Shown here: positions 3,385-47,605 of the stretch, piece by piece
Layout of the letters: every line of letters begins with the position of its first letter
Numbering within the stretch: the first letter of the stretch is position 1
Assembly (NCBI GenBank): GCA_964351105.1
Contig: CAYGMC010000003.1
Coordinates: 1-47,715, forward strand
From: an uncultured Candidatus Saccharibacteria bacterium
GTDB taxonomy: Bacteria; Patescibacteriota; Minisyncoccia; Phycocordibacterales; UBA2100
Length of the DNA stretch: 47,715 nucleotides
Direction: 5' to 3'
Notes under the pieces: generated by a model
Database searches by the model: none
What the model was told of the DNA's origin: nothing
The model's input: the letters and a program-made list of their open reading frames with translations, nothing else
Translations under genes and position numbers: made by a program

Positions 3385-3900
3385 TTATTTTGTCTCCGCG
3401 ACCTTGCTCAAAACTACCGCAAAACGTTGACGCGGTGAATTGAGAAGTTGCGCAAACATGCCGCGCAAAGCCTGCATGCTTGGTATCGTTGCGATCTCTC
3501 GCATCATGACTGCGTCGACTATTTTACCCTCGAAAATACCACCGAGAATTGAGATCTTCTCTGGGCCAAATTCTTTACTAAACGCGTGAATGCGTTGCGC
3601 AGGTGCCGTTGTGTCCGCCTGCGGTGAGCCGGTCGAATCCGTGCTTGTCTTTGTGTAGCACACAGCAACTTCACCGGGAAGATCAGTGTCGTTCGTATGT
3701 CCCAGACCCTGGAGCGCCCTCCGGATCAAGCTCTTTTTTGCTACCGTGTAGCCGATACCTTCATTGCGGAGTTTCCGACGCATGTTCGATTCCTGCGCCA
3801 CGGTGATTCCCGTGAAGCCCACAAAGACACTCGTTTGTCCTTTGAGAGCACTCTCAATTTTGCTCACGACCTCCTCTTTTTGTTTTCTGGTTTTTGCCAT
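3385..3900 (-). CDS. rplJ: 50S ribosomal protein L10
   Basis: 171 aa, located immediately upstream of rplL. The N-terminal [43 protein letters not shown] pattern is typical of uL10. Confidence 0.9.
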
Positions 3901-6602: not shown

Positions 6603-6633
6603 GGGTCAATCATACCCGAAAAATTGAGAACAC

Positions 6634-6661
6634 AAAAACCCCCTCTTTCGAGGGGGTTTTT
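6634..6661. terminator. Bidirectional rho-independent terminator
   Basis: Perfect hairpin AAAAACCCCCTC-TTTC-GAGGGGGTTTTT between the giant surface-protein gene and the TPR gene. Confidence 0.75.
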
Positions 6662-6710
6662 GTTGCTTACGTTGTCGCCGTAAACGAAACGCACAAGGTC
6701 AAGCGAGAGA

Positions 6711-17849: not shown

Positions 17850-18566
17850 CTAGAGAGGGTCATATTCACGAACAGAAAAGGCATCGGTGCGATAAAATAC
17901 GTGTTCATATTCAAGATTTTTTCCGTCTTCCGCCGCTACATATGGAGTATCTTCATGCGAAAGTCGAGTGAGTTCGGCCGCGCTCTTATCGCCATAACGT
18001 GCAAGCACACTATCGATCATTTCTGTTTCGCGCCCACTGAGTGATGCAAGATCGGCTGATTTGCGCGGTAAGAATTTCCTCTGTTCGTATGCGAAGTAGG
18101 CACTTTTCACTTCTTCCAAGTCGCCATTTTTTTTCATCTCATCCACTACTTTCACGAATTCGCGCGGTGACGGACCGAAATGATTTTTGAAATACGTAAG
18201 ACCCATGAACTGTTCATCGTATTTTTCGTAATAATCGAAATCGATGAAGTAGAGAAGTTTGTAGAGTGCGGTCATGCCGATGTTTGGTTTGCCCGCAGTC
18301 TTTTCCAACATATAAAGGAGCACCTGTTTGAATTTCTCTAATTTTTTTTGAGGCACATTCACGCGTATGTCGCTCACAGAAATTTCGTGCGCCTCCACCA
18401 TACCGAATAATTCGTGCGCGCGTTCTTCCTCCGGCCGTGTCAGTATACGCTCGCCCTTCTCGACTTTTACTAATGTCGGCCGAGACATGCCAAGCTTTCC
18501 TGCGAGATATTCCTGAGTCATGCCGTGCAGTACTCGCTGTTCCTTTATGTTGAGTTTCTGAGCCAT
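17850..18566 (-). CDS. XRE-HTH plus Panacea (DUF4065/SocA-like) domain antitoxin
   Basis: N-terminal LHGMTQEYLAGKLGMSRPTLVKVEKGER is an XRE HTH. The central MTALYKLLYFIDFDYYEKYDEQFMGLTYFKNHFGPSP is the DUF4065 signature. The ATG at 18566 is preferred over the GTG at 18623. Confidence 0.8.
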   Translation of the reverse strand: MAQKLNIKEQRVLHGMTQEYLAGKLGMSRPTLVKVEKGERILTRPEEERAHELFGMVEAHEISVSDIRVNVPQKKLEKFKQVLLYMLEKTAGKPNIGMTALYKLLYFIDFDYYEKYDEQFMGLTYFKNHFGPSPREFVKVVDEMKKNGDLEEVKSAYFAYEQRKFLPRKSADLASLSGRETEMIDSVLARYGDKSAAELTRLSHEDTPYVAAEDGKNLEYEHVFYRTDAFSVREYDPL

Positions 18567-18657
18567 ACAAGAATGATGCCACACAATACACCATGCAGGG
18601 TGAGTTATCAACAGGATGTCCACAATTGTAATATTCTTGTAATAAGTACCGTTATCA

Positions 18658-18685
18658 TTGACATAGACGCACGAGGCACTAAAAT
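18658..18685 (+). promoter_or_regulatory. Near-consensus sigma70-type promoter (TTGACA-16 nt-TAAAAT)
   Basis: -35 TTGACA at 18658-18663 and -10 TAAAAT at 18680-18685. It points toward the small ORF and the terminator at 18907. Confidence 0.45.
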
Positions 18686-18734
18686 ATTACCAACTTGGGT
18701 GACCGAGGATTATCAGCAATAAATCTCAACGCAT

Positions 18735-18866
18735 ATGGCCCATTCAAAAGTGACTAGCAAAGCAGTGGCGAGCAAGGCATCGGCGGTTCTCCGCAATTCA
18801 CACTCGAGTAAAGCGGCGAGGAGCACCGCAGCGAGCGCACTTTCACAGCGTCACCGAAACAAGTAG
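18735..18866 (+). CDS. Candidate small basic Ser/Ala/Lys-rich protein (43 aa)
   Basis: MAHSKVTSKAVASKASAVLRNSHSSKAARSTAASALSQRHRNK. It is below the ORF-track cutoff and has no convincing SD. It is bracketed by the promoter at 18658 and the terminator at 18907. Confidence 0.3.
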   Translation: MAHSKVTSKAVASKASAVLRNSHSSKAARSTAASALSQRHRNK

Positions 18867-18906
18867 CGAAAGTTACCAGCTTGTCGAAAATCTCCAGCTT
18901 TTGCCA

Positions 18907-18930
18907 AAACCCCGCCTTTCGGCGGGGTTT
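18907..18930. terminator. Bidirectional terminator hairpin
   Basis: AAACCCCGCC-TTTC-GGCGGGGTTT between the convergent small transcription unit (+) and the RM gene (-, stop at 18935). Confidence 0.7.
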
Positions 18931-18934
18931 GAAA

Positions 18935-21715
18935 CTATGTCTGAGAACTCAGTTGCTTATACAACCCGAACAAAAACTCTAGCCGCTCGGGCTCGGATTT
19001 GAATACTCGTTTGCTGTGCCCGTCCGAAGCCTTGTGCGGAGGATGGCCGTAACAGGCATCAACGGCTTTATCGAGCGCTTTGTGCGCCTTGAGGAGATCG
19101 GCGGGCATGGTGTTGGGATCATAGAGATCGGCGAGAGTCGAGCTTGGGTACTTCGCCCGCACATCCAGCACTTCCTGCGCCGCGTCTTCCACCGCCTTTT
19201 TCTGCACATCACTCGGCTTCTCCGGCCACGGGAAATTGTTGTAGACGATGTCTTTTGAGTACCGATAGCGACTTTCTAGTCGGCCGGCAACTGCCCGCAT
19301 CCACGCCATGTGCATTTCGCTTTCGAGAATGCCAAAGTGGTAGAGGGTGGCATCGGAAATGACAAATAAAAGGTCGCTCGAAATGGTAGTCCGATTTTCA
19401 AAACCAACGGGAATGTATTTGCGCTTTTCTGATGATACCTTTGGGACGACCAAATAATTTCCTTCGGGCATATTCTCGACATGAAATCGAGTGGGCTTGT
19501 CTGCGAGTTTGCGTGTCGGCGCGCTTTTACTCATTGAACGGAATTGTCGTACTGATTCGATACGTCGCATGACCTCGGGCATTGCTTTCAGGTCTTCTGG
19601 ATTTGCTTTTCCAAGCCACAAACACCATCGTTCCCATCCATTAAGAAATTCGTCCGAGCCAATCCACCGACGAAAGAATTTTGCCGCGTTAGGTTCTTTC
19701 TTCAAAAACTCCTCTTTTTCTTCGGTGCTGAAAAGGTACATCCCGCCATCGATCGGTTTGTTGCCTATGCCGATTTCCGGCACATCGCAAATCGGCTTGC
19801 TGCGACTTTCGAGAAAGATGTCCGGTGCGTCCACAAGATACGGCGCGATATGTTTGGCCGCTACCTCCCGAGGCTCGCCACGAATATCGTCGTATTCGTA
19901 AATGAACAGATGTTTTCCTTCATGCAAGCCGAATCCGACGATGACACAATACACGGCGGCCTTGCCTGGGGCCTCGTTGCTCCACTTGAATGTGCGGTGT
20001 GCGAAGCGTATATGTACACCGAACTTAACCGTAAGCTCTTTCCATAAAATACCTACTTGCTCACCTTGCGTGATGGAATTGGTCGAGACGAATGCGACAT
20101 CGATATTCGTACCTTGAATGTACTGCGCGGCTTTGAGGTACCATCCCGAAACGTAGTCCAGCACGCCACCACCTTTTCCAAAAAGCTCTGCAATTTCTGC
20201 GCGTTGTTCGTCGGACATTATTTTCGAGCCAATGAATGGTGGGTTTCCCAAAATGTAGGTGAGCTTTTCTTTGGGTACCACGGTTTCCCAATCAATTTGC
20301 AATGCACTGACACCACTCACGATGTGTGGCTGTTCGGTGAGCGGAAGTTTGCGGAATGGCTTGCCGAAATACTCGCCGAGTTCAATGTTCATCATGTGAT
20401 CCATGAGCCAGAGCGATAGCTTGGCTATTTCGGCTGGGAACGCTTCTATCTCGATGCCGTACATCCGCTCTACGGAAAGCTTGGAAAGCTTTTTGATGTC
20501 GACCTCAAATGGGAGGAGGCTATGGCCAGCATCCACTTTCGCGCTCCCGTGTTTGTAGAGTCGCTTGATTATCTCGAGCTCTATGCGGCGCAGTTCGCGA
20601 TACGCGATGACGAGGAAGTTGCCGCAACCACATGCCGGATCGAGTAATGTGATCGCCGCGATCTTTGCCCACAGTGCATTCAGTTTTTCGTGATTTGTTT
20701 TTGCGGCTTCGAGCTCGGCGTGTAATTCATCGAGAAAGAGGCCGTTGATCACTTTGAGGATGTTTTGCTCACTTGTGTAATGCGCGCCGAGATCGTGCCG
20801 TTCTTTCTCATTCAAGACCGATTGGAACATCGAGCCGAAGATGGCGGGTGAGATGCGCGACCAATTGAATTCAACGCAGGTCATGAGCGTATCGCGAATT
20901 TCGCGCGAGCCAAAAACGGCGGGAATGGGTACAGCAAAAAGGCCGCCATTTACGTATGGGAGCGCTTTCAGTGCGTCGGGCATAGTGTCTTGACGACGCT
21001 CATCGGGGGTATTGAGTACGTAAAAAATTTGTCCGAGATGTGCGCCGATATCAGAGCCATCTGTTTTGGTGTTTTCTTCGAGGTAGCGGCGCATATCGTT
21101 GCGATTGAAAATACCGGTGTCGTCGGCAAAGAAACAAAACACGAGGCGAGTGAGAAGCGGCGAGATGTGTTCGGTGGGATAGTGTGAGATCTTGAGCGCT
21201 TCGTAGAGCTTTCCTATCGCGCGCACGGCACGCACGTTGATCGGGTCCTCTTCTTTGTACTCGCGCACTTCTTCATCGGTGAGAAAAGCAAAGCGCTGAA
21301 TATTGTCTGAAAGATCCTCCAAAGCAAACTCGAATTCCCTATCCTCTTTTGGTGCTTCGAGATCGTAGATGCGAAATCGGGCGAAATCGGAAACGACGAT
21401 GTATCGCGGTTTTTCATCTTCCGAGAGAGCGTCCATGTAATTTGCCGCCTGCAGAAAAGCACTGTCGAGACTCTTGCCAAGTGATTTGTGCTCGACAATG
21501 AAATTATCGGGTGCAAAAAAATCGATCTTGCCCGCGCCCCCTTTGATCAGCTTTACGCGCTCTTCAAAAATGCCGAGCGAACGTTCGCGCACATCGAAAA
21601 TATCGAAGAAGCGCACCCAAAATGCTTTTGCCCATTTGTCCTCGTCTTTCGCATCCTTCCACTCATGCGAAAAGGCGATCGCTTTATCTTGGATGTCGCG
21701 CCAATTGACCGTCAT
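18935..21715 (-). CDS. Type IIL (MmeI-like) bifunctional restriction endonuclease / N6-adenine DNA methyltransferase
   Basis: The N-terminus MTVNWRDIQDKAIAFSHEWKDAKDE...KIDFFAPDNFIVEHKSLGKSLD parallels the MmeI N-terminal D...ExK nuclease domain. MTase motif I is LDPACGCGNFLV and motif IV is GNPPFIGSK. A long C-terminal TRD completes about 926 aa. The ATG at 21715 is preferred over the TTG at 21733. Confidence 0.9.
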   Translation of the reverse strand: MTVNWRDIQDKAIAFSHEWKDAKDEDKWAKAFWVRFFDIFDVRERSLGIFEERVKLIKGGAGKIDFFAPDNFIVEHKSLGKSLDSAFLQAANYMDALSEDEKPRYIVVSDFARFRIYDLEAPKEDREFEFALEDLSDNIQRFAFLTDEEVREYKEEDPINVRAVRAIGKLYEALKISHYPTEHISPLLTRLVFCFFADDTGIFNRNDMRRYLEENTKTDGSDIGAHLGQIFYVLNTPDERRQDTMPDALKALPYVNGGLFAVPIPAVFGSREIRDTLMTCVEFNWSRISPAIFGSMFQSVLNEKERHDLGAHYTSEQNILKVINGLFLDELHAELEAAKTNHEKLNALWAKIAAITLLDPACGCGNFLVIAYRELRRIELEIIKRLYKHGSAKVDAGHSLLPFEVDIKKLSKLSVERMYGIEIEAFPAEIAKLSLWLMDHMMNIELGEYFGKPFRKLPLTEQPHIVSGVSALQIDWETVVPKEKLTYILGNPPFIGSKIMSDEQRAEIAELFGKGGGVLDYVSGWYLKAAQYIQGTNIDVAFVSTNSITQGEQVGILWKELTVKFGVHIRFAHRTFKWSNEAPGKAAVYCVIVGFGLHEGKHLFIYEYDDIRGEPREVAAKHIAPYLVDAPDIFLESRSKPICDVPEIGIGNKPIDGGMYLFSTEEKEEFLKKEPNAAKFFRRWIGSDEFLNGWERWCLWLGKANPEDLKAMPEVMRRIESVRQFRSMSKSAPTRKLADKPTRFHVENMPEGNYLVVPKVSSEKRKYIPVGFENRTTISSDLLFVISDATLYHFGILESEMHMAWMRAVAGRLESRYRYSKDIVYNNFPWPEKPSDVQKKAVEDAAQEVLDVRAKYPSSTLADLYDPNTMPADLLKAHKALDKAVDACYGHPPHKASDGHSKRVFKSEPERLEFLFGLYKQLSSQT

Positions 21716-21768
21716 GGGGGCATTATGACTCAATTCTCCCGCTTCGTCAGGTTCCTAATTTGGAAACT

Positions 21769-27248: not shown

Positions 27249-27833
27249 ATGGGAACGATGGAGCAGGCATCGAAGAAACGAACGCGGCGCGGAAATGTAG
27301 AGCGAGCGATTCTCTCGGGGCTCGCCGTTGCTGGTATTGGTCTGGTTGCTATGGCCGCCCCCAACACACTTCAGCTCTTGAAATACGCGGACCCAGACTG
27401 GATCATCAAGCGAGACCCGAAGCAGCGCGTCCGTGAAGCCACGTATAGACTCAAGAAAAAGAAACTTGTCGAATTTGTGAGCGAGAACGGGCACGTACGG
27501 CTCCGCATTACCGACAAGGGGAAGGCGCACCTGCAATCCCTATCCTTCGGCCCGTTACGTAAGCCAAGGCGATGGGATGGAAAATGGCGTCTTGTGATAT
27601 TTGATATTCCGGAAAAGAAACGTGGGCTTCGCAACCGAGCGCGTAGTATTGTTGTGGGTTTTGGTTTTATAAAATTACAACATAGCGTTTGGGCGTACCC
27701 CTACGATTGCGAAGAAGCAATCGCGCTCCTTAAGGCGCATTTGCATATTGGCAGAGATTTGCTCTACATAATCGCAGATGCGATCGAATACGACGCGCCG
27801 CTTCGCAAGGAATTCGGCCTCCGCCGCGAATGA
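27249..27833 (+). CDS. PaaX-like regulator with wHTH and Cas2-fold domain, N-terminal TM segment
   Basis: WDGKWRLVIFDIPEKKRGLRNRARSIVVGFGFIKLQHSVWAYPY is the PaaX/Cas2-like beta-alpha-beta motif. It is preceded by a wHTH-like ATYRLKKKKLVEFVSENGHVRLRITDKG and a hydrophobic N-terminal segment. Confidence 0.65.
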   Translation: MGTMEQASKKRTRRGNVERAILSGLAVAGIGLVAMAAPNTLQLLKYADPDWIIKRDPKQRVREATYRLKKKKLVEFVSENGHVRLRITDKGKAHLQSLSFGPLRKPRRWDGKWRLVIFDIPEKKRGLRNRARSIVVGFGFIKLQHSVWAYPYDCEEAIALLKAHLHIGRDLLYIIADAIEYDAPLRKEFGLRRE

Positions 27834-27838
27834 GGGTG

Positions 27839-27876
27839 TATTGTTTAATTATGACGGCCGTCATAATTAAACAATA
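27839..27876. repeat. 38-nt perfect palindrome TATTGTTTAATTATGACGG/CCGTCATAATTAAACAATA
   Basis: 19+19 nt perfect inverted repeat 5 nt after the stop of the PaaX-like gene. It has the same outer arms as the 27194 palindrome and could also serve as a bidirectional terminator. Confidence 0.75.
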
Positions 27877-27944: not shown

Positions 27945-28781
27945 TCAGATGCCGAACACGCGTTTTGCGTTGGCGAAGATTTGCTCACGGACTTTTTCGG
28001 GGTCTTCGCCACGAATGGCGGCGATTTTGTCTACTATGAGTGGAACGTGGGCGGATTCGTTGCGTTTGCCGCGATGCGGCACAGGGGTGATGTAGGGAGC
28101 GTCGGTTTCCGAAAGGAGCATGTCGAGCGGTGTATTTTTGATTACCTCATCGTAGTCATGTGTAAAGGTAAGGACTCCGGTAAAAGAAAGGGTGAACCCG
28201 AAATCGAGGAATTTCTTGGCCACAGCCCAATCCCCCGCAAAGAAGTGTACGTCCCCTTTCACCTTGGCGTGTGCCTTTAAAATTTCCAACGCATCATCGT
28301 ATGCATTCTTGCCCGCCATAGCCTCGGCGGAGGGGCGAATGTGCAACATCAGCGACTTCCCGAGCTTGTTCGCAAGCTCGATCTGCTGGATAAATACCTC
28401 TTTCTGAATCTCTTTCGTTTTTTCTTCGAGCCGAAAGTAATCGAGCCCGCATTCACCTATCGCAATCATGCGTTTGGATGCGCCGAGATTTTCGTATGCG
28501 GCGAAGTCGAAGACTTCGCCGCGTGAAGTAAATTCTTTTCCCCCTTCTCCGAGCTCCTTTTCATCGTGATACGACTTGCTGGTATGTATCGGATGCAATC
28601 CGATGGTCGCATACACATGCTTATATTTCTCGGCAAGTTCCACGGCCGCGCGCGAAGTATCGAGCTGTGTCCCCACCACATTCATAATCACCTCCGCCTC
28701 TTTCGCACGCGCAATTGACTCCTCACGATCACTTTCGTAGGCCACAAATTGCACGTGCGTATGTGCGTCGAAGTATTTCAT
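27945..28781 (-). CDS. tatD: TatD-family metal-dependent hydrolase/DNase
   Basis: The MKYFDAHTHVQF start (HxH motif), GLHP, ECGLDY, LHIR, HFF(A)G and ETDAPY motifs are all present. Confidence 0.9.
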   Translation of the reverse strand: MKYFDAHTHVQFVAYESDREESIARAKEAEVIMNVVGTQLDTSRAAVELAEKYKHVYATIGLHPIHTSKSYHDEKELGEGGKEFTSRGEVFDFAAYENLGASKRMIAIGECGLDYFRLEEKTKEIQKEVFIQQIELANKLGKSLMLHIRPSAEAMAGKNAYDDALEILKAHAKVKGDVHFFAGDWAVAKKFLDFGFTLSFTGVLTFTHDYDEVIKNTPLDMLLSETDAPYITPVPHRGKRNESAHVPLIVDKIAAIRGEDPEKVREQIFANAKRVFGI

Positions 28782-39553: not shown

Positions 39554-42436
39554 CTATTCAAATACGATGTCCGTGTTCGTTTCTTTTTGTAGGTGCTCTT
39601 TGTTTTTTTCAATAAAGGCAAAATTATCCGCGGTGCGACCGACGGTGTACGTGCCCTGATCCTTTGGATGCAAATTACTCTCCTTGCGGAATGCTTGAAT
39701 ATCGCGCACCACATCGCGGAGCATCCCCTCTTGGCGAAGATCGTGGGTGATGTTCGTATCAAGCGCAATATCTTGACCCGTTAAGATTTTTTTGACATTT
39801 ACTTCGTCGGCGATGATAGCGATGTATTCATCAGCGAGTTTTACACTTTCTGGCACGGTGAGCGTGGCGAGCGGTTGGCGAACTTTTATTTTGGCTGTAT
39901 CTCGAGCCTCGAGTGCTTTTGAAACGATCTCCCGCGCGGAGCGCATGTGCGCAACGACACTGTCGTCAGCGACCTGCGCGTGAGCCCACGAAGACAAATG
40001 CACGCTTTCTTCGTCCTGTTCTGTTTTCAATTCCTGCCACAATCGTTCGGCCATAAAAGGCGCAAACGGCGCAATCATCTTCGATGTCTCGAGCAGAATA
40101 AAAAGAGTTGTCGAAAGTGCTGCTTTTTTACTTGTCCCGAGCGGAGTCGAGGGATCGCCTACATCCTCCCCCTTGATGCGATCACGCGAACGACGCAGGT
40201 ACCACGTGGAAAGATCGTCGACAAAGAGCGCAAGCGGGCGCGTGGCGGAGGTGAGATCGTATACATCCATTGCTTCGGTAATTTCACCGTGTGTTTGTCG
40301 TAGTCGCGCAATTATCCACCGGTCGAGCACATGCGTACTCGTATCACTCGCGGCATGCGCCACATCCGCCGCATAGAGTGTGTAAAAAGAAAGCACATTT
40401 TCAAGACGCGTCAGGACGCTTTTCCATTCTGCAACCCCTCTTTCGGAGAACGAGAGATTTTCCGCCTGCATAACGGGCGATGCGAGAAGGTAAAGGCGAA
40501 GCGCATCGGCGCCATACTTCTCCACAATATCCATCGGATCGGGATAATTCTTGAGCTTTTTCGACATCTTCTTGCCGTCTTCCGCCAAGACGATGCCGTT
40601 GACGATTACATTTTGAAACGCATTTTTCTCCAATACGGCTCCCCCGAGTACGTGCAAGTAGTAAAACCACGCGCGCGTCTGATCGAGGCCTTCGGCGATA
40701 AACTGCGCAGGAAAAGCGGCATCAAATTGTTCTTTATTTTCAAAAGGATAGTGCTTCTCCCCATATGGCATCGAGCCAGAATCAAACCATGTGTCGAGTA
40801 CGTCGGGAATGCGGCGCATTTCCCCATCACACGTCCAACAAGAAAAAACAATCTCGTCGACGACGTGTTTGTGCAGATCGTCTATTTTTTTGCCACACGC
40901 TTCTTCAAGCTCCGCCGCCGAACCAAACACCTTGTTTGTTTTGCACTTATCGCAACGCCAAATCGGAATGACACTCGCCCAAAAACGCTGACGGGAAATA
41001 GACCAGTCGCGCGCGCCTTCGAGCCATTTGCCAAATCTTCCCTCTTTGATATGTGCTGGCGACCAGTTGATTGCCTCGGCATTTTTGAGCAGATTTTCTT
41101 TTATCTTGGTCACAGAAACAAACCACGAACTCGTCGCATAATTCAAAAGCGGTGTGTCGCAACGCCAACAATGCGGATATGAGTGCGTGATGTTTTCTTT
41201 CGAAAAAAATGACCCTTGCTCTTGCAGGTACTTGAGTACTGCGATGTCGGTACCGAGGCGTGTCTTGTCGTCATCCGAACGGGGCTTCACCTCCATGCCC
41301 ACAAAGTCTTTGACCTCTGGCTTGAACGTCCCATCCATTTCAACATGCTGAACAAACGGCAAATTAACTCTTTTGCCCAATTCCCAATCGTCGGCGCCAA
41401 AAGCCGGTGCTTCGTGCGCAATCCCCGTCCCACTCTCTGCCGTCACAAAATCCGCCGCATATACCTTCCAGCCATTCTCACGATTCTTAAGATTTTTGTC
41501 GTTGACGTAGTAATCAAACGGGGGTTCGTATTCAAGGCCGACGAGTTCGCTCCCACGAACGACTTTCTGATCGTCTCCATCTTTCTTTGCACGAATAAAC
41601 GACGCACCGTCTTGTTCAAACACGATGTATTCAATATCGTCTCCAACAGCCAACGCGACATTCCCCGGCAATGTCCACGGCGTAGTCGTCCATGCGAGAA
41701 TGTACACGTCGCCCGAAAGTCCGATCTTTTCCGGATTTTTCAACTTAAACTTCACCGTTACTGCAATGTCTTTTACGTCCTTGTACCCTTCAGACACTTC
41801 TTGTTGACTAAGCGTCGTCTCGCAACGTGGGCAGATGTACATAGCACGGTAGTCTTCGTACACGAGGCCTTTGTCGTAGAGCTGTTTGAAGACCCACCAC
41901 ACAGATTCCATGAATGATTTGTCCATCGTGCGGTAGGCATTTTTCATATCGGCCCAACGGCCAATGCGCGGGATTATCTTTTCCCACTCGCTCGCGTAGG
42001 TAAGCACGCGTTCGCGGCACGCTTCGTTGAATTTGGCGACGCCGTATTCTTTGATGTCTTTCTTGTGCTTAAATCCGAGTTCTTTTTCAACGATGTTTTC
42101 TATCGGCAATCCATGACAATCCCACCCCCATACGCGCGGCACGCGATATCCGCGCATCGTCCAGTATCGCGGTATTGCGTCTTTGATGACGCTCGCGACG
42201 ATGTGCCCGTAGTGAGGCAAACCCGTCGCAAAAGGTGGGCCGTCATAAAAAACGTATTCGCCATTCGGCGCATCTTTCTCTACAGATTTCTTGAAAATAT
42301 CGCGTTCATTCCAAAACGCGAGCGTAGCTTCCTCCCTTTTCGCAACTTCAGACTTTGCCTCGCCAAAGCCCTGTGCGGAGGCGGGTTTTTCTATATTTTC
42401 AGCCATTCTGAGTATCGTAGCAAAATACGAGCTCAT
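39554..42436 (-). CDS. ileS: Isoleucyl-tRNA synthetase (type 2-like)
   Basis: FYDGPPFATGLPHYGHI (HIGH), the CP1 editing domain, KMSKKLKN (KMSKS) and a length of about 950-960 aa. An alternative ATG is at 42406. Confidence 0.96.
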   Translation of the reverse strand: MSSYFATILRMAENIEKPASAQGFGEAKSEVAKREEATLAFWNERDIFKKSVEKDAPNGEYVFYDGPPFATGLPHYGHIVASVIKDAIPRYWTMRGYRVPRVWGWDCHGLPIENIVEKELGFKHKKDIKEYGVAKFNEACRERVLTYASEWEKIIPRIGRWADMKNAYRTMDKSFMESVWWVFKQLYDKGLVYEDYRAMYICPRCETTLSQQEVSEGYKDVKDIAVTVKFKLKNPEKIGLSGDVYILAWTTTPWTLPGNVALAVGDDIEYIVFEQDGASFIRAKKDGDDQKVVRGSELVGLEYEPPFDYYVNDKNLKNRENGWKVYAADFVTAESGTGIAHEAPAFGADDWELGKRVNLPFVQHVEMDGTFKPEVKDFVGMEVKPRSDDDKTRLGTDIAVLKYLQEQGSFFSKENITHSYPHCWRCDTPLLNYATSSWFVSVTKIKENLLKNAEAINWSPAHIKEGRFGKWLEGARDWSISRQRFWASVIPIWRCDKCKTNKVFGSAAELEEACGKKIDDLHKHVVDEIVFSCWTCDGEMRRIPDVLDTWFDSGSMPYGEKHYPFENKEQFDAAFPAQFIAEGLDQTRAWFYYLHVLGGAVLEKNAFQNVIVNGIVLAEDGKKMSKKLKNYPDPMDIVEKYGADALRLYLLASPVMQAENLSFSERGVAEWKSVLTRLENVLSFYTLYAADVAHAASDTSTHVLDRWIIARLRQTHGEITEAMDVYDLTSATRPLALFVDDLSTWYLRRSRDRIKGEDVGDPSTPLGTSKKAALSTTLFILLETSKMIAPFAPFMAERLWQELKTEQDEESVHLSSWAHAQVADDSVVAHMRSAREIVSKALEARDTAKIKVRQPLATLTVPESVKLADEYIAIIADEVNVKKILTGQDIALDTNITHDLRQEGMLRDVVRDIQAFRKESNLHPKDQGTYTVGRTADNFAFIEKNKEHLQKETNTDIVFE

Positions 42437-42453
42437 CTGCGAGACATCTATTG

Positions 42454-42549
42454 CGGAGAATTTCTTGGAGAAATTCCCCCTGAATCGTCAAATTTTATTG
42501 GATAAAATTTGACGATTCACATCTTCTCCGGTGCAGAGATGCCGAGTAT
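42454..42549 (-). repeat. 96-nt repeat module, copy L (HAD 3' end plus double hairpin)
   Basis: It matches 43295-43390 at 91/96 positions. It contains the last 10 codons plus stop of the HAD gene, the 39-nt palindrome 42481-42519 and the hairpin GAATTTCT-TGG-AGAAATTC. Confidence 0.85.
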
Positions 42550-43167
42550 TTCGAGCGTGAGGTCGGTGAGATTATGGACATTGACATCTGCCGGACTTTC
42601 ATTTTCAGTAACATGAGTAAGTAGCCCGACACAAAACATGCCTGCGGCTTTTGCCCCCATCATCCCATGAAGTCCATCTTCGATAACAACACAGTCGCTT
42701 GGAGCAACTCTTAATCGTTTTGCGGCAAGTAGAAATACGTCAGGGGCGGGCTTGCCATTTGCAACTTCATTTCCACTTGCGATAGCAGAGAACAACGGTC
42801 TTAGTGCCAACTCTTCGAGAACAAAGTCGATGTAGTCGAGTGCTGATCCCGATGCAACGGCCATGGGAATCATACGATCGTGCAACATTTTGATGATTTC
42901 AGAAGCACCAGGAACCACTTTGATATGCGCGCCAGCCATGAGCGCGTTACGTTTTTGGACAATCTCCTCAATTGGCGGCATAGATTGTCCAACCTCTCTA
43001 AACAACTGTCCGAATTGATCAACGTCTGAAACTCCTGAAAATCGTCGCGCCATCTCCTCTGGATCTACGTATATGCCGTATTCCTCCATGACCTTACTTT
43101 CCGCCGCACTGTAAATGTGCTGCGTATCGGAGATAACTCCATCCATGTCGAAAATGACGGCCTTCAT
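42517..43167 (-). CDS. HAD-superfamily hydrolase (beta-phosphoglucomutase/phosphatase-like, subfamily IA)
   Basis: MKAVIFDMDGVISDT (motif I DxDG), ASGS (motif II) and VIEDGLHGMMGAKAAGM (motif IV-like). The C-terminal 10 aa are shared with ArgRS (see findings). Confidence 0.88.
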   Translation of the reverse strand: MKAVIFDMDGVISDTQHIYSAAESKVMEEYGIYVDPEEMARRFSGVSDVDQFGQLFREVGQSMPPIEEIVQKRNALMAGAHIKVVPGASEIIKMLHDRMIPMAVASGSALDYIDFVLEELALRPLFSAIASGNEVANGKPAPDVFLLAAKRLRVAPSDCVVIEDGLHGMMGAKAAGMFCVGLLTHVTENESPADVNVHNLTDLTLEILGISAPEKM

Positions 43168-43207
43168 ACGTAGTACGAAGTATAATATGAAGTTCTATTG
43201 GGTCCTT

Positions 43208-43287
43208 CTACGGAGAATTTCTTGGAGAAATATGGTCCAAGACCCGAATGTGCTCATTCGCCCGTGAATCATCAAATTTTATTGGAT
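43208..43287 (-). repeat. Broken third copy of the repeat module
   Basis: CTACGGAGAATTTCTTGGAGAAAT (43208-43231) and GTGAATCATCAAATTTTATTGGAT (43264-43287) are separated by an unrelated 32-nt insert. Only one arm of the long hairpin remains. Confidence 0.7.
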
Positions 43288-43294
43288 CCTGCTA

Positions 43295-43390
43295 CGGAGA
43301 ATTTCTTGGAGAAATTCCCCGTGAATCATCAAATTTTATTGGATAAAATTTGATGATTCACATCCTCTCCGGTGCCGAGATGCCGAGTAT
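43295..43390 (-). repeat. 96-nt repeat module, copy R (argS 3' end plus double hairpin)
   Basis: See copy L. The 39-nt palindrome is at 43322-43360, and the stem starts at the argS TGA. Confidence 0.85.
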
Positions 43391-45043
43391 CCAGAGGCCG
43401 TTTTTGAGCGTCCGGCGGACGGCATCTACCAGCGCGACTTTATGCGCGGCTTCAGGAGTACCATCGAGAATATGCACCTGCGCGTACCAACTATTAAACG
43501 CGCTCGCAAACTCCAATAGGTAGTTGGTCAGCAAATGCGGCTCGTTGTGTCCTGCGGCGTATTCGACGGCCTCAGGAAAGCGATGCAAAAGGCGTATCAC
43601 GTCATTCGATTCCACAGAAGCATTTGCGGCACCGGTAATTCCTTGTTCTTTGGCCTTCTCCACAATCTGATGCGCACGCGCATGCGCGTATTGCAGATAC
43701 GGTCCCGAATCTCCTTCGAGAGAAAGCGCACGCTCACGATCAAAAATAATGTCTTTGCCAGAAGTCTGTTTGAGTATCTGGTATTTGATAGCGGCAACGG
43801 CAATAACTTGCGCGAGTTTCTCTGGATCATCGGCACTCCGCCTGCTGGCGGATTCAGCGGCGCGCATTTTTGCCGCTTCCGTGAGGTCGTTGATGAGGTC
43901 TTCTCCGCGCACGATGTTGCCGGTGCGCGACGACATCTTGCCATCGGCAAAACGCAACATGCCATTGGTTTTGAAAGAGAGCTTCCCGCGCAATTCTGGC
44001 AAAGCAAGCTCCATTGCTTTCATCAAGACTTTGAAATACTCGCCCTGCTCGTTGCCCGTGATGGTAATGGTGAGATCAAACGGACACGTCTCTGCTTTCA
44101 TCCGCGCAAGCCCGAGCTCTTTGGCTTCATAGGTCGGTAGCCCCTGCTTATTGAGAAACACACGCGTATGAAGGCCGTATTCTTCTCCGCGGAAAATGAC
44201 AGCGCCATCGCTCTCGGGAAAAATCTCGGGATGCGCGCGAACGATGGGTACACCTTTGGGCCCCGTCTCGCTCTCGAAGAAATAGTAATCAAACTTTGTG
44301 CCAAGGACTTTGTAAATTTCCTCGAAATGATCGAGCGAGAGCTTCCTCCCCTTTGCATAGAGGTCGTTTACCTGTTGGTCGCTCTTGTCGTATATCTTTT
44401 TGTTCAACGCCTCGATAGCGCTTTTTGCTGATGGGTCGTCCTCGTATCGCTTTGAGCCTTCCGGATACGCAGTGCTCAAGTCGGCGACGGTGGGGTCTGT
44501 GATGCCGCGCTCGAGCAGGATAAATATGGATTTGGCAACGTGGATGCCCACGTCACCTTGATAATTGGCGCGCTTCACAGAGGCGCCGGAAAATTCAAGG
44601 AGCCGTGCGATGGATTCGCCGAGCGCGTTGGGGACCAAGTGGCCGATGTGAAATTCTTTGAACGGATTGGGGTCGGTGTATTCGACCATGACAACCTTGC
44701 CCACCCACGACGAATTACTCCCCCACATATCCTTTGTACGAGCCTCTTCCACTGCAGACGAAAGCGCCGACGAATCAAGATAGAAATTGATAAATCCCGG
44801 ACCTGCGACCTCGATTCTTTGAATCGAGGTCGGTCCGAGCGAAGTCGAGGACCTGATATGCTCCGCCAATTGCTCCGCAAGCACTCGCGGCGTCATCCCC
44901 GCCTGCTTCGCGTACTGTAGAGCAACGCCCGAAGAATAGTCGCCATTCTTCAAATCCGCGGGATGCTCAAGTGAAATCTCAACACCCGAAATACCCGCGC
45001 TTTCAAGCGCAAGATTGATTGCCTTTTGTAGCTTCTCTTTCAT
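43358..45043 (-). CDS. argS: Arginyl-tRNA synthetase
   Basis: N-terminal Arg_tRNA_synt_N-like region, EYTDPNPFKEFHIGHL (HIGH), the DALR anticodon-binding region and the C-terminal ...ILGISAPERM. Confidence 0.95.
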   Translation of the reverse strand: MKEKLQKAINLALESAGISGVEISLEHPADLKNGDYSSGVALQYAKQAGMTPRVLAEQLAEHIRSSTSLGPTSIQRIEVAGPGFINFYLDSSALSSAVEEARTKDMWGSNSSWVGKVVMVEYTDPNPFKEFHIGHLVPNALGESIARLLEFSGASVKRANYQGDVGIHVAKSIFILLERGITDPTVADLSTAYPEGSKRYEDDPSAKSAIEALNKKIYDKSDQQVNDLYAKGRKLSLDHFEEIYKVLGTKFDYYFFESETGPKGVPIVRAHPEIFPESDGAVIFRGEEYGLHTRVFLNKQGLPTYEAKELGLARMKAETCPFDLTITITGNEQGEYFKVLMKAMELALPELRGKLSFKTNGMLRFADGKMSSRTGNIVRGEDLINDLTEAAKMRAAESASRRSADDPEKLAQVIAVAAIKYQILKQTSGKDIIFDRERALSLEGDSGPYLQYAHARAHQIVEKAKEQGITGAANASVESNDVIRLLHRFPEAVEYAAGHNEPHLLTNYLLEFASAFNSWYAQVHILDGTPEAAHKVALVDAVRRTLKNGLWILGISAPERM

Positions 45044-45078: not shown

Positions 45079-45107
45079 CCCCGGTTCCACTCTATGCGGA
45101 ACCGGGG
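45079..45107 (-). terminator. Terminator after the 45136 orphan gene
   Basis: Minus strand CCCCGGTTCC-9 nt-GGAACCGGGG followed by CGACGTTTTTAT. Confidence 0.55.
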
Positions 45108-45896: not shown

Positions 45897-46268
45897 TTAT
45901 AGATCCATGAGCCCAAGACTTATTTCAAGCGCGCGGTCGACGCGCATCATTGTCTCATGCCGCAAGACCCCGAGCCTTTTTCCGAGACGACGTTTGTCGA
46001 TAGTGCGTACTTGATTTAATAGAACTACGCATGGCTTTTCGATTCCCCCGTCAGGAGGATTGACATAGACTTCTGTCGGATACAATTTTGTATCAAATTG
46101 CGAGCTCACCGCCGCGACTATAGTCGTGTTGCCATGACGATTACCGATATTGTTTTGCAGAACGACTGCAGGTCTCGTCTTTTTGATTTCTGATCCGACG
46201 GTCGGATCGAATGCCACCACATACACTTCTCCGCGCAACGGGGTTATGCGCTTGGAGATTTTTGCCAT
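45897..46268 (-). CDS. mazF: MazF/PemK-family endoribonuclease toxin (copy 1)
   Basis: RGEVYVVAFDPTVGSEIKKTRPAVVLQNNIGNRHGNTTIVAAVSSQ...VLLNQVRTIDKRRL is the classic PemK/MazF pattern. Confidence 0.88.
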   Translation of the reverse strand: MAKISKRITPLRGEVYVVAFDPTVGSEIKKTRPAVVLQNNIGNRHGNTTIVAAVSSQFDTKLYPTEVYVNPPDGGIEKPCVVLLNQVRTIDKRRLGKRLGVLRHETMMRVDRALEISLGLMDL

Positions 46269-46504
46269 ACTTCTTCCTCAAGAGGAAACCACTCTTCGGC
46301 AATAGAAAGATCGCGCGCCGCGTGGGCAATCGCACCGAGTCGCAACTGTTTCTTGAGATTCACTCGTCCAATTTCTTTTACATAAAAACGGACAGCTTGA
46401 TCAACGAAGCCACTCCTGTCTCCCTTCTGCGCCACTCTATCAAGAAGCCGTAGGGTGTCTTGCGGTAGTGTCATATTGACCCGTTTGATCGTTGGTGTAC
46501 TCAT
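46244..46504 (-). CDS. Ribbon-helix-helix (CopG-like) antitoxin (copy 1)
   Basis: 86 aa. KRVNMTLPQDTLRLLDRVAQKGDRSGFVDQAVRFYVKE is the RHH pattern. It overlaps the mazF start by 25 nt. Confidence 0.75.
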   Translation of the reverse strand: MSTPTIKRVNMTLPQDTLRLLDRVAQKGDRSGFVDQAVRFYVKEIGRVNLKKQLRLGAIAHAARDLSIAEEWFPLEEEVWQKSPSA

Positions 46505-46547
46505 ACCACGGGAGTATACACACTGAACGTGTGTATCGTCAATGAGC

Positions 46548-46901
46548 CTAATGGGTCAGGGCCACAAACAACCCTTTGATGACGCGGGCCAGCTCGTCGG
46601 GCGTGATGCGACCTATCCTCTTGCCTAATCGCTTCTTGCTGATGGTGCGAATCTGAAACGGAATTGCTTCGCCATCTTTCTTCAAACCATTCATGCGGCT
46701 TTTATACAAAAGCACACAGGTGGGATATGACTTTATTTTCGACGTTACGGGCACGACAATAACTATCGGGAGTGCTTCGTTGAGGGTATCGCCCGATACT
46801 ATGACGACTGGCCGTTTTCCTGACTGCTCGGACCCTTTTGTTGGTTCAAGATCGGCAAACCACACTTCGCCTTGTCGCATATCACGAGCGGCCGACGACA
46901 T
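46548..46901 (-). CDS. MazF/PemK-family toxin (copy 2)
   Basis: RQGEVWFADLEPTKGSEQSGKRPVVIVSGDTLNEALPIVIVVPVTS...QIRTISKKRL. The start is at the ATG at 46901 (or 46880). The 174-aa track ORF is an over-extension into the antitoxin gene. Confidence 0.8.
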   Translation of the reverse strand: MSSAARDMRQGEVWFADLEPTKGSEQSGKRPVVIVSGDTLNEALPIVIVVPVTSKIKSYPTCVLLYKSRMNGLKKDGEAIPFQIRTISKKRLGKRIGRITPDELARVIKGLFVALTH

Positions 46902-47127
46902 GCACGTAGTCTTCCATACCCCACTCCGCAAGTTCGAGCATGTCGGGGTCTTGCGCGGCCTTCTCAAATCCTTTTTTGAGCGACTCTCGTACAGAATCAC
47001 GTTGGTAATACTTGATGGCATCTTCCAGAACGGCGCGGCGAGTAGTTTTCTTCGCACGTGCCCGCTTATCAACCCACGCGATAAGTGTGGGCGAGATGGT
47101 GCTTGTAAATGAAAGTGTTGTTTTCAT
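46882..47127 (-). CDS. Ribbon-helix-helix antitoxin (copy 2)
   Basis: 81 aa. TTLSFTSTISPTLIAWVDKRARAKKTTRRAVLEDAIKYY is RHH-like. It lies immediately upstream of and overlapping MazF copy 2. Confidence 0.7.
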   Translation of the reverse strand: MKTTLSFTSTISPTLIAWVDKRARAKKTTRRAVLEDAIKYYQRDSVRESLKKGFEKAAQDPDMLELAEWGMEDYVHVVGRS

Positions 47128-47185: not shown

Positions 47186-47605
47186 CTATTCCGAATCAAT
47201 CCCCATACTTCGCGCGGTGCCGGCGATTATCTTTTTTGCTTGCGTCATGTCGTTGGCATTCAGATCTTCCATTTTTTCCGTCGCAATCTCTTCGAGCTGT
47301 TTTTGGGTAAGCTTGCCCACTTTTGTCTGCGCTTTTTGCGAGCCTTTCTCCAGTCCCATCGCCTTTAGAATGAGGCGCGAGGCGGGTGGCTTCTTGACGA
47401 TAAAGGTGAAACTTCGGTCTTTGTATACCGTGAGGAGGACCGGGACGATACTGCCCATCATGGGGCGCGTGAGCGTGTTGAACTGGTTGACGAATTCGCC
47501 GATGTTGACACCCGCAGGCCCGAGTGCGGTGCCAACTGGCGGCGCTGGTGTCGCCTTGCCTGCCTCTATCTGGAGCTTGATGATTTTTGTAATTTCTTTT
47601 GCCAT
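47186..47605 (-). CDS. rplK: 50S ribosomal protein L11
   Basis: [35 protein letters not shown]...[11 protein letters not shown]...AGTARSMGI is diagnostic. Confidence 0.95.

What the first reader, a model, noticed from the sequence alone, without database searches (positions are those of the whole stretch)
42447..43390. HAD hydrolase gene bracketed by 96-nt direct repeats that copy the argS 3' end plus a double hairpin
Seen in the sequence:
- 42454-42549 and 43295-43390 are direct repeats 841 nt apart (91/96 identical by my alignment). A broken third copy lies at 43208-43287.
- Each module contains the last 10 codons plus TGA of the upstream gene: ILGISAPEKM* for HAD and ILGISAPERM* for ArgRS.
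- Each also contains a perfect 39-nt palindrome whose stem begins at the stop codon (TGAATC[G/A]TCAAATTTTAT-cca-ATAAAATTTGA[C/T]GATTCA), and a second 8-bp hairpin.
- Two of the five differences form a compensatory pair (G:C to A:T) in the long stem, which argues that the structure matters.

Established knowledge (from memory): ...PE[KR]M-COOH is the usual ArgRS C-terminus.

Inference: the HAD gene has borrowed its last 10 codons from a duplicated argS end. The HAD gene therefore looks like a cassette inserted at the argS 3' end with duplication of an att-like, terminator-containing site.
Basis: partly seen in the sequence, partly recalled or inferred. Interest (0 to 1): 0.65.

Follow-up and report, generated by a model that had tools for sequence, protein, structure and literature searches.

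The report
argS gene-end duplicated behind neighbouring HAD
A 96-base piece holding the last ten codons of the arginyl-tRNA synthetase gene and a conserved double hairpin has been copied onto the end of the neighbouring HAD hydrolase gene; the HAD gene is an old resident of this spot, so this is most likely a local duplication and not an imported mobile cassette.

Summary
Two 96-nt direct repeats (91/96 identical) bracket the HAD gene. Each holds the ArgRS C-terminal ten codons, TGA, an 18-19-bp perfect palindrome that starts in the stop codon, and an 11-bp hairpin. Three independent assemblies show the same structure.

The cassette/att reading is only partly supported:
- HAD lies between argS and ileS, or after argS-PIF1, in distant relatives, so it belongs to an old syntenic block.
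- The window holds no recombinase.
- HAD composition is ordinary.
- The module occurs nowhere else in the window, or in a relative's MAG.
- Two other lineages where HAD abuts argS also carry ArgRS-like tails on HAD. The tailed HADs are not monophyletic.

Close relatives have argS joined directly to ileS through the same twin hairpin. Its stems have changed on both sides at 20 of 30 pairs, while both CCA loops are invariant.

Best reading: recombination or template switching between the argS and HAD 3' ends, in a deletion-prone interval, copied the argS tail and its twin hairpin. Whether HAD was inserted or lost in relatives is unresolved, and the hairpin's function is untested. Interest is moderate.

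The parts
43358..45043 (-). argS (arginyl-tRNA synthetase, 561 aa), ends ...GLWILGISAPERM*
   Evidence: Pfam Arg_tRNA_synt_N, tRNA-synt_1d and DALR_1; ORF
43295..43390 (-). Repeat copy A: the argS last 10 codons plus TGA (43358-43390), then the long palindrome and hairpin 2
43321..43361 (-). Long hairpin A: 19-bp perfect stem, loop CCA. The stem includes the argS TGA and the G of the last Met codon.
43296..43320 (-). Hairpin 2, copy A: GGGGAAUUUCU-CCA-AGAAAUUCUCC, 11 bp with one G.U
43180..43295 (-). Tandem partial units M2 and R3, in order: spacer GTAGCAGGAT; second copy of the right arm (43264-43282); 29-nt insert with a small hairpin (43245-43260); hairpin-2 remnant (43212-43231); spacer GTAGAAGGAC; decayed third arm (43180-43201)
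   Evidence: The spacer is orthologous to the M1-M2 spacer of L009 (no shuffle as good).
43168..43200 (-). HAD 5' leader. It begins with CAATAGA, which also follows repeat copy B, and it resembles the ileS leader (19 of 27 positions by my count of the alignment).
   Evidence: p about 0.0002 with the shared ends, 0.09 without them. Suggestive only.
42517..43167 (-). HAD-family phosphatase (216 aa). The last 10 codons, ILGISAPEKM*, are copied from argS.
   Evidence: Pfam HAD_2 and Hydrolase; homologues
42454..42549 (-). Repeat copy B: HAD tail plus TGA (42517-42549), long hairpin B (42481-42519, 18 bp, loop CCA) and hairpin 2 (42455-42479)
42407..42453 (-). ileS leader, holding the box TTGCTACGATAC (42412-42423). 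That exact 12-mer recurs in L027, and close variants (TGCTACGATAC, GTTACGAT) sit at the same place in L009, L019, L022 and L023. Probable ileS promoter or leader.
39554..42406 (-). ileS. The start ATGGCTGAA at 42406, at or near the start seen in relatives, is more likely than the ORF's first ATG at 42436.
   Evidence: Pfam tRNA-synt_1; alignment of relatives

Best explanation
The organism is a Patescibacteria (CPR) bacterium. HAD is a native gene of an old argS...(PIF1)...HAD...(alr)...ileS block that is being eroded by deletions.

In this lineage the argS stop codon is followed by a conserved, locus-specific twin hairpin, which I call M:
- a long perfect hairpin anchored in the stop codon;
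- an 11-bp second hairpin;
- a CCA loop on both.

M sits just upstream of the ileS leader. It probably acts in the transcript as an argS 3'-end, insulator or processing structure.

A recent event copied a 96-nt tract onto the 3' end of HAD. The tract is the last 10 argS codons, TGA and M. The event was ectopic recombination, gene conversion or replication template switching between the 3' ends of argS and HAD. It was helped by short similarity between the ArgRS tail (...LGI...) and the native HAD end (...IGL or L-L-x-L). It replaced the last few native HAD residues, gave HAD the ArgRS tail and gave HAD its own copy of M.

The long palindrome stays perfect because its arms are corrected against each other (quasipalindrome template switching), by selection for the hairpin, or both. 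The resulting direct repeats make HAD deletable. Recombination between them would give exactly the argS-M-ileS junctions seen in relatives.

What is shown and what is inferred:
- Shown: the anatomy, the synteny, the covariation and the locus specificity.
- Inferred: the copying mechanism, the direction of change (insertion or loss) and the function of M.
For: - Anatomy and reality of the repeat.
- The tail is ArgRS-native and foreign to HAD. All but 2 of the other 119 HAD homologues listed lack it and end 3-5 residues after L-x-x-E.
- HAD is syntenic. L027 has argS-orf-HisPhos-PIF1-HAD-alr-ileS, and the P0004 contig has argS-PIF1-orf-HAD.
- The interval is plastic among relatives with 76-82% ArgRS identity: argS-PIF1 (L021, L024), argS-M-ileS (L022), argS-ileS without M (L023). 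L009/L019 (argS-M-M2-ileS) and L029 (argS-M-M2, where the contig ends) add two more.
- Both copies in the window share lineage-specific residues (Ile and Ser in W-I-LGI-S), as expected for a local, recent copy.
- L005 shows the same effect: M-L-G-I is encoded by identical codons in its argS and its HAD.
- Tailed HADs occur only where HAD directly abuts argS (window, L004, L005). They are not monophyletic on the HAD body: 0 of 500 bootstraps for P0001+P0002+P0007 against 413 of 500 for P0002+P0007. This suggests recurrent local copying.
- No recombinase among the proteins scanned from the window, while RecA, RecO and SSB are present.
- HAD GC is 0.481 and GC3 is 0.461, against window means of 0.507 and 0.541.
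- M is locus-specific. The covariance model, with filters off, finds only these copies in 47.7 kb. CCA-loop hairpins occur nowhere else in the window except one 7-bp chance-like match inside the HAD coding sequence. The hairpin-2 20-mer occurs only on the argS-ileS contig of the L009 MAG, out of 185,579 species genomes.
- M is conserved by structure: 98.9% of cells paired, 20 of 30 pairs changed on both sides, 0 of 500 shuffles as good, and loops invariant.
- Template switching is a published way to create and maintain perfect hairpins (PMC8794818, abstract).
Against: - The relatives that carry M (L009, L019, L022) have no HAD at the junction. ArgRS-closest L021 has PIF1 after argS. A true insertion of HAD into an argS-M-ileS ancestor therefore cannot be excluded.
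- No relative of intermediate distance exists in the databases. The next HAD is only 56% identical, so the direction of change is unresolved.
- The 95% identity of the repeats, against about 20% divergence of ileS from L009, shows a recent event. It does not say whether that event was conversion, duplication or integration.
- No single-step mechanism is demonstrated.
- M has no U-tract, whereas canonical terminators with T-tracts exist elsewhere in the window. Its terminator or insulator role is therefore conjecture.
- The HAD tree is neighbour-joining on 205 columns at about 50% identity, which is weak evidence.
Confidence: 0.6

Rival explanations
1. HAD was truly inserted or re-acquired. The ancestor had argS-M-ileS, like L022 and L009. 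A DNA molecule from a relative carried HAD already fused to an ArgRS-like tail plus M. It integrated through RecA-dependent single crossover (Campbell-type), or through homology-facilitated illegitimate recombination, using the conserved argS tail and M as the homology. This duplicated the 96-nt tract. No dedicated recombinase is needed. The conserved argS end acts as a homology 'address'.
For: - Empty junctions exist in L009, L019, L022 and L023.
- Copy B plus the ileS leader resembles the L022 and L009 junctions, and copy A plus M2 resembles the M1-M2 of L009.
- L009 and L019 are 98.6% identical, yet 31 of their 32 mismatches lie in the argS end and the long palindrome. Inter-lineage recombination therefore has a breakpoint at M.
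- RecA, RecO and SSB are encoded in the window.
- HAD carries ArgRS-like tails in three lineages.
Against: - No donor-like sequence exists; the next HAD is 56% identical.
- HAD composition is ordinary.
- Re-insertion at exactly the ancestral syntenic position needs a relative that kept HAD, which reduces this rival to allele exchange at a native locus.
- Both tails share this genome's own Ile/Ser signature.
Confidence: 0.25
2. M is a recombination site, att-like or attC-like, read as a folded single strand. An unidentified hairpin-specific recombinase or HUH nuclease encoded elsewhere recognises it. HAD and other genes downstream of argS are cassettes exchanged at this site.
For: - Both CCA loops are strictly conserved while the stems change freely.
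- M units are duplicated in tandem.
- The right edge of the repeat coincides with the end of hairpin 2.
- The L009/L019 breakpoint lies at M.
- Gene content after argS varies among relatives.
Against: - No integrase, transposase or HUH protein was found among the proteins scanned from the window.
- M is single-locus, not dispersed.
- The repeat includes 33 nt of coding sequence with a ragged left edge in a region of ordinary homology.
- HAD and PIF1 are syntenic in distant relatives that lack M.
- M contains no GTTRRRY core or extrahelical bases. The long stems are perfect in five of six sequences, with one mismatch in L022.
Confidence: 0.07
3. Assembly artefact: a shared 96-nt repeat caused a chimeric join that placed HAD between argS and ileS.
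For: Contigs L002 and L003 break inside the repeat region.
Against: - L001, a k141 assembly of another sample, spans argS-HAD-ileS at 99.93% identity with both copies and their five differences.
- The 96-nt repeat is shorter than that k-mer.
- Three independent assemblies agree with the window wherever they overlap it.
Confidence: 0.02

Closest known systems
attL/attR of integrative elements that rebuild the 3' end of their target gene (tRNA, tmRNA or protein-gene integration by tyrosine integrases)
   Same: Direct repeats flank a DNA segment, and one repeat restores the 3' end of the upstream gene. Relatives have an empty site.
   Different: - No integrase is present.
- The 'insert' is one native, syntenic housekeeping-type gene.
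- The repeat is read as the C-terminus of the bracketed gene.
- The repeats are 95% identical rather than identical.
- The same tail is found, diverged, in other lineages.
REP/BIME-type extragenic palindromes and hairpin clusters downstream of stop codons (mRNA 3'-end stabilisers or terminators; hairpin-cluster termination is proposed in PMC8355165)
   Same: Tandem stable hairpins lie immediately after a stop codon, are duplicated in tandem, have no U-tract and sit between two genes.
   Different: - M is single-locus, not dispersed.
- The stems are not sequence-conserved.
- Both loops are an invariant CCA.
- The first stem is anchored in the stop codon.
- The need for a U-tract in at least some RNA polymerases (PMC3993855) leaves terminator activity doubtful.
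Quasipalindrome template-switch homogenisation (template switching creates and maintains hairpins, PMC8794818; arm homogenisation, PMC8604942)
   Same: The long arms are perfect in five of six sequences (one mismatch in L022). All changes are on both sides, and there are no one-sided intermediates among 19 pairs. The arm copy in M2 is identical to that in M1 in the window and in L009.
   Different: The mechanism is not demonstrated here. Selection on an RNA hairpin would give a similar pattern, and hairpin 2 keeps a G.U pair on the sense strand.
Ectopic gene conversion or segmental duplication between neighbouring genes (concerted evolution of short tracts), and homology-facilitated illegitimate recombination
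   Same: A short tract is copied between nearby loci and carries lineage-specific substitutions in both copies. One edge lies at a short similarity.
   Different: The donor and recipient genes are unrelated (an aminoacyl-tRNA synthetase and a HAD phosphatase). The product is therefore a chimeric C-terminus plus a transplanted intergenic element. The event appears to recur in separate lineages.

Membership tests
Site-specific integrative cassette (att sites, integron attC) | Direct repeats bounding the inserted DNA | tested here: met
   96-nt repeats, 91/96 identical
Site-specific integrative cassette (att sites, integron attC) | Cognate integrase or recombinase next to the site or in the element | tested here: not met
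   No recombinase, transposase or HUH domain in 43 proteins scanned from the window. The rest of the genome could not be tested.
Site-specific integrative cassette (att sites, integron attC) | Inserted gene is foreign to the locus | tested here: not met
   HAD lies in the argS...ileS interval in L027 and after argS-PIF1 in the P0004 contig. GC and GC3 are within range. No phage or plasmid match.
Site-specific integrative cassette (att sites, integron attC) | attC features: imperfect palindrome with R/L boxes, GTTRRRY core, extrahelical bases | tested here: not met
   The window's palindromes are perfect and M contains no GTT on either strand (read).
Canonical intrinsic terminator | G+C-rich hairpin followed by a U-tract | tested here: not met
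   The terminator scan does not call M, and no T-run follows either hairpin. The first stem is A+T-rich. Canonical ones exist at 2767-2798, 6632-6663 and 45079-45107.
Canonical intrinsic terminator | Transcript 3' ends map to the site | not testable with these tools
   No transcriptome data are available.
REP/BIME or MITE-like dispersed palindromic repeat | Many dispersed copies in the genome | tested here: not met
   Found only at this locus in 47.7 kb. The hairpin-2 20-mer is on a single contig of the L009 MAG and in no other CPR genome of the species collection. The window's own complete genome could not be tested.
Known RNA families (T-box and other Rfam models) | Match to a curated covariance model | tested here: not met
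   No hit at gathering score in the window. Only noise, at E of 0.3 or more, in 42350-43450.
Local segmental duplication or ectopic gene conversion | Donor sequence adjacent, and the tract includes non-coding flank | tested here: met
   The tract holds 33 nt of argS coding sequence and 63 nt of the argS-downstream element, lying 841 nt apart.
Local segmental duplication or ectopic gene conversion | Both copies share lineage-specific substitutions | tested here: met
   ILGIS is present in both copies, whereas most relatives have LGIP. In L005 the M-L-G-I codons are identical in both genes.
Local segmental duplication or ectopic gene conversion | Direction shown by phylogeny (recipient gene vertically inherited at the locus) | tested here: inconclusive
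   Synteny in distant relatives supports it, but the nearest M-bearing relatives lack HAD.
Structured cis-element conserved by covariation | Compensatory changes exceed the controls | tested here: met
   20 of 30 pairs changed on both sides, 98.9% of cells paired, 0 of 500 shuffles as good, and slid controls reach 31-58% paired. Only six sequences from five lineages were available.

The most novel reading that the evidence does not exclude
The stop-codon-anchored twin hairpin, with two invariant CCA triloops and freely covarying stems, is a previously undescribed cis-element of a Patescibacteria lineage. A factor would read it as a folded single strand (RNA or DNA). It would also act as the breakpoint for gene gain, loss and allele exchange downstream of argS. 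HAD with its ArgRS tail would then be one product of a recurrent, hairpin-guided recombination process, not of a one-off duplication.
Probability: 0.1. Interest if true: 0.75.

Novelty: new variant of a known kind. Interest (0 to 1): 0.4.

Why it matters
- It is a clean natural example of a gene's last codons and its downstream structured element being transplanted onto an unrelated neighbouring gene. The result is a chimeric C-terminus, and it appears to have happened more than once.
- Direct repeats that rebuild a gene end look like att sites, but here comparative synteny argues against a mobile cassette. This is a useful caution for island and cassette prediction in metagenome-assembled genomes.
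- It documents deletional erosion and inter-lineage recombination in a small CPR genome at single-locus resolution.
- It flags a locus-specific twin hairpin with invariant CCA loops that is absent from Rfam and could be tested as a new regulatory, processing or terminator element.

Tried and rejected
- Genome-wide REP-like element: rejected for the sequence available. Motif searches, a CCA-loop hairpin scan and a covariance model with filters off find M only at this locus. The species-genome scan finds it on one relevant contig.
- Known RNA family or T-box leader of ileS: no Rfam hit.
- Canonical terminator: no U-tract.
- Phage or plasmid origin: no blastn match. The palindrome is absent from viral contigs.
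- Recombinase nearby: none found.
- Foreign composition of HAD: not seen.
- Single origin of the tailed HADs: not supported, 0 of 500 bootstraps. The tree is weak.
- A switch in which the left arm pairs alternately with right-arm copies 1 and 2: considered because folds that way, and both copies match the left arm in the window and in L009. L019 and L029 have a second copy that does not match, so it was not pursued.
- Homology between the HAD 5' leader and the ileS leader: only suggestive (p 0.0002 with the shared ends, 0.09 without them).
Full report
**1. What is in the sequence**

All genes in this region lie on the minus strand, in the order argS (43358-45043), HAD (42517-43167) and ileS (39554-42436 as an ORF). 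Pfam confirms all three identities. The direct repeat is real: 42454-42549 and 43295-43390 are 91/96 identical.

Read on the coding strand, each copy has five parts in this order:
- the last ten codons, ILGISAPERM for ArgRS and ILGISAPEKM for HAD;
- the stop codon TGA;
- a perfect palindrome whose stem begins in the stop codon (19 bp after argS, 18 bp after HAD, loop CCA);
- one base;
- a second hairpin, GGGGAAUUUCU-CCA-AGAAAUUCUCC, of 11 bp with one G.U pair.

I call the two hairpins together M.

The five differences between the copies are one synonymous change, one Lys/Arg change, one compensated stem pair, and one base after the stem.

Between copy A and the HAD start lies a tandem partial unit. 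It consists of a spacer, a second identical right arm (43264-43282), a 29-nt insert with its own small hairpin, and a hairpin-2 remnant (43212-43231). A decayed third arm follows at 43180-43201.

Motif counts exceed every shuffle. Three independent assemblies from other samples agree with the window at 99.9-100% identity. L001 spans argS-HAD-ileS, L002 and L003 cover HAD into ileS, and the five differences are kept wherever both copies are covered. This is not an assembly artefact.

**2. The tail belongs to ArgRS, not to HAD**

Nearly all of the 120 ArgRS homologues listed end in ...LGIxAPExM. HAD homologues normally stop 3-5 residues after a conserved L-x-x-E, for example ...LSVEKLLKL...LSIENLIA and ...LPLERIGL. 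In the window the tail starts exactly there. HAD therefore lost a few native residues and gained nine from ArgRS.

Among the other 119 HAD homologues listed, the nearest is only 56% identical. Two also carry ArgRS-like tails: P0002 (...LDMLGIPAPKRM) and P0007 (...LEMLGIADPK).

**3. Comparative loci**

| Locus | Relation to the window | Order downstream of argS |
|---|---|---|
| L004 (P0002) | HAD 52% identical | HAD directly after argS, start overlapping the argS stop; no hairpins; next gene not ileS |
| L005 (P0007) | HAD 48% identical | HAD directly after argS, 6-nt gap; no hairpins; next gene not ileS |
| L027 | distant | orf - HisPhos - PIF1 helicase - HAD (no tail) - alr - ileS |
| P0004 contig | distant | PIF1 - orf - HAD (no tail) |
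| L021 | ArgRS C-terminus 82% | orf92 - PIF1 |
| L024 | ArgRS C-terminus 77% | PIF1 |
| L023 | ArgRS C-terminus 76% | 47 nt, then ileS; no hairpins |
| L022 | ArgRS C-terminus 80% | M - ileS |
| L009, L019 | ileS 79.5% nt identity | M - M2 - ileS |
| L029 | ArgRS 83% | M - M2, then the contig ends |

Three conclusions follow:
- HAD between argS and ileS is old synteny.
- The interval is very plastic.
- 'Empty' argS-ileS junctions carrying the same twin hairpin exist.

The box TTGCTACGATAC lies just before ATGGCTGAA. It recurs exactly in L027 and as close variants in the other ileS-bearing loci. This marks the real ileS start at or near 42406.

**4. The twin hairpin is a conserved, locus-specific structure**

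Six M units from five lineages align without gaps over 72 columns. For the two-hairpin structure:
- 98.9% of cells pair;
- 20 of 30 pairs have changes on both sides;
- no shuffle does as well (0 of 500), and slid controls reach only 31-58% paired;
- the long stem shows no one-sided changes;
- both loops are CCA in every unit.

Three parts of the long stem are fixed: the stop codon TGA, the preceding G of the Met codon, and their complement TCAC. Coding constraint explains this.

The element is not in Rfam. A covariance model built from the alignment, run with filters off, finds only the two full copies and the partial unit in the 47.7-kb window. It finds only the M and M2 units in the fetched loci. 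A direct scan for CCA-loop hairpins agrees, apart from one 7-bp match inside the HAD coding sequence that looks like chance.

The hairpin-2 20-mer occurs in just one relevant contig among 185,579 species genomes, and the 22-mer in one relevant metagenome contig. M is therefore not a dispersed REP-like repeat.

M has no U-tract, while canonical terminators with T-tracts occur elsewhere in the window.

L009 and L019 are 98.6% identical. Yet 31 of their 32 mismatches lie in the last 75 nt or so of argS and in the long palindrome, which has a wholly different stem sequence in the two. Only one mismatch occurs in the following 2 kb. A recombination breakpoint between divergent lineages therefore lies at M.

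**5. Relation of the two window copies to relatives**

- Copy A and its tandem unit match the M1-spacer-M2 layout of L009; the spacer similarity has no shuffle as good.
- Copy B and the following leader match the M-leader-ileS junctions of L022 and L009, with p of 0.01 or less.
- CAATAGA follows both the tandem unit upstream of HAD and copy B. The HAD 5' leader weakly resembles the ileS leader. An older duplication of the whole argS-ileS spacer, later homogenised over the 96 nt, is possible but not shown.
- Recombination between the two 96-nt repeats would yield the L022 layout. Recombination between the hairpin-2 copies would yield the L009 layout. The reverse direction, insertion into such a junction, fits equally well.

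**6. Evidence against a mobile cassette**

- No integrase, transposase or HUH protein among the 43 proteins scanned from the window. RecA, RecO, SSB and FtsK are present.
- HAD GC is 0.481 and GC3 is 0.461, against window means of 0.507 (sd 0.033) and 0.541 (sd 0.063).
- No phage, plasmid or viral-contig match.
- Tailed HADs are not monophyletic on the HAD body: 0 of 500 bootstraps for P0001+P0002+P0007, against 413 of 500 for P0002+P0007. The tree is weak.
- Tailed HADs are found only where HAD abuts argS.
- In the window and in L005, the two tails share lineage-specific residues or codons. This fits local copying or continuing conversion between the two gene ends.

**7. Best explanation (confidence 0.6)**

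A recent local event copied the argS tail and M onto the native HAD gene. The event was ectopic recombination, gene conversion or template switching. It was probably seeded by the short similarity between ...LGI... and the native HAD end. It took place in a deletion-prone interval.

The palindrome stays perfect through arm-against-arm correction (template switching; PMC8794818 and PMC8604942, abstracts), through selection for the hairpin, or both.

M probably works in the transcript as an argS 3'-end, insulator or processing structure ahead of the ileS leader. Two points favour the sense RNA: the G.U pair in hairpin 2, and the constant CCA on the coding strand. Hairpin clusters without U-tracts have been proposed as terminators (PMC8355165), but at least mycobacterial polymerase needs a U-tract (PMC3993855). 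The function is inferred, not shown.

**8. Rivals**

- Re-acquisition of HAD by homologous or Campbell-type recombination from a relative (0.25).
- A true hairpin-specific recombination site with an unknown enzyme (0.07).
- Assembly artefact (0.02).

**9. Verdict**

The inference that the tail was borrowed from argS is supported. The cassette/att inference is not supported as stated.

This is a new variant of known processes: short-tract duplication or conversion, and intergenic hairpin elements. Two features are unusual:
- recurrent transplantation of a synthetase C-terminus onto a neighbouring enzyme;
- a stop-codon-anchored twin hairpin with invariant CCA loops.

Interest is moderate (0.4).

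Noticed in passing
L009 1-113 versus L019 182-294: Two strains are 98.6% identical overall, yet 31 of their 32 mismatches lie in the argS 3' end and the long palindrome, whose stem sequence is completely different. Only one mismatch occurs in the next 2 kb of ileS. This is a recombination tract ending at the twin hairpin.
   Followed up: partly
window 42406 versus 42436: The longest ileS ORF starts at ATG 42436. The start shared with relatives, ATGGCTGAA preceded by the TTGCTACGATAC box, is at 42406. An annotation from 42436 would add 10 spurious residues.
   Followed up: yes
window 27839-27876: A 38-nt perfect palindrome with no loop (TATTGTTTAATTATGACGG/CCGTCATAATTAAACAATA) lies between the convergent PaaX/Cas2-like gene (27249-27833, +) and the TatD gene (27945-28781, -). 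It is as long as the argS palindrome but unrelated in sequence.
   Followed up: no
window 45897-47127: Two MazF/PemK toxin genes (45897-46268 and 46548-47072), each with a small upstream ORF (probable antitoxin), lie between rplK and argS. L004 and L026 also have toxin-antitoxin genes next to HAD.
   Followed up: no
window 3385-3900 and 47186-47605: Ribosomal protein genes L10 and L11, normally neighbours in one cluster, lie about 43 kb apart at opposite ends of this contig, both on the minus strand.
   Followed up: no
window 17850-21733: An MmeI-family restriction-modification fusion gene (18935-21733) lies next to an HTH plus SocA/Panacea antitoxin-like gene (17850-18623).
   Followed up: no
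L029 623-757: This relative carries two tandem M units whose second hairpins have different stem sequences from each other (GCAGGACATTT and GTCGAATCCTT), both with CCA loops. The second resembles the hairpin 2 of L022.
   Followed up: partly
L009 79-117: The left arm of the L009 palindrome contains ACCTCCT (an anti-Shine-Dalgarno-like sequence) and the right arm contains AGGAGGT. In L022 the same segment is flipped, with GGAGG on the left and CCTC on the right. This is probably coincidence.
   Followed up: no
window 43245-43260: The 29-nt insert that interrupts the second hairpin-2 copy carries its own small hairpin, CGAATG-AGCA-CATTCG. Its origin is unknown.
   Followed up: no
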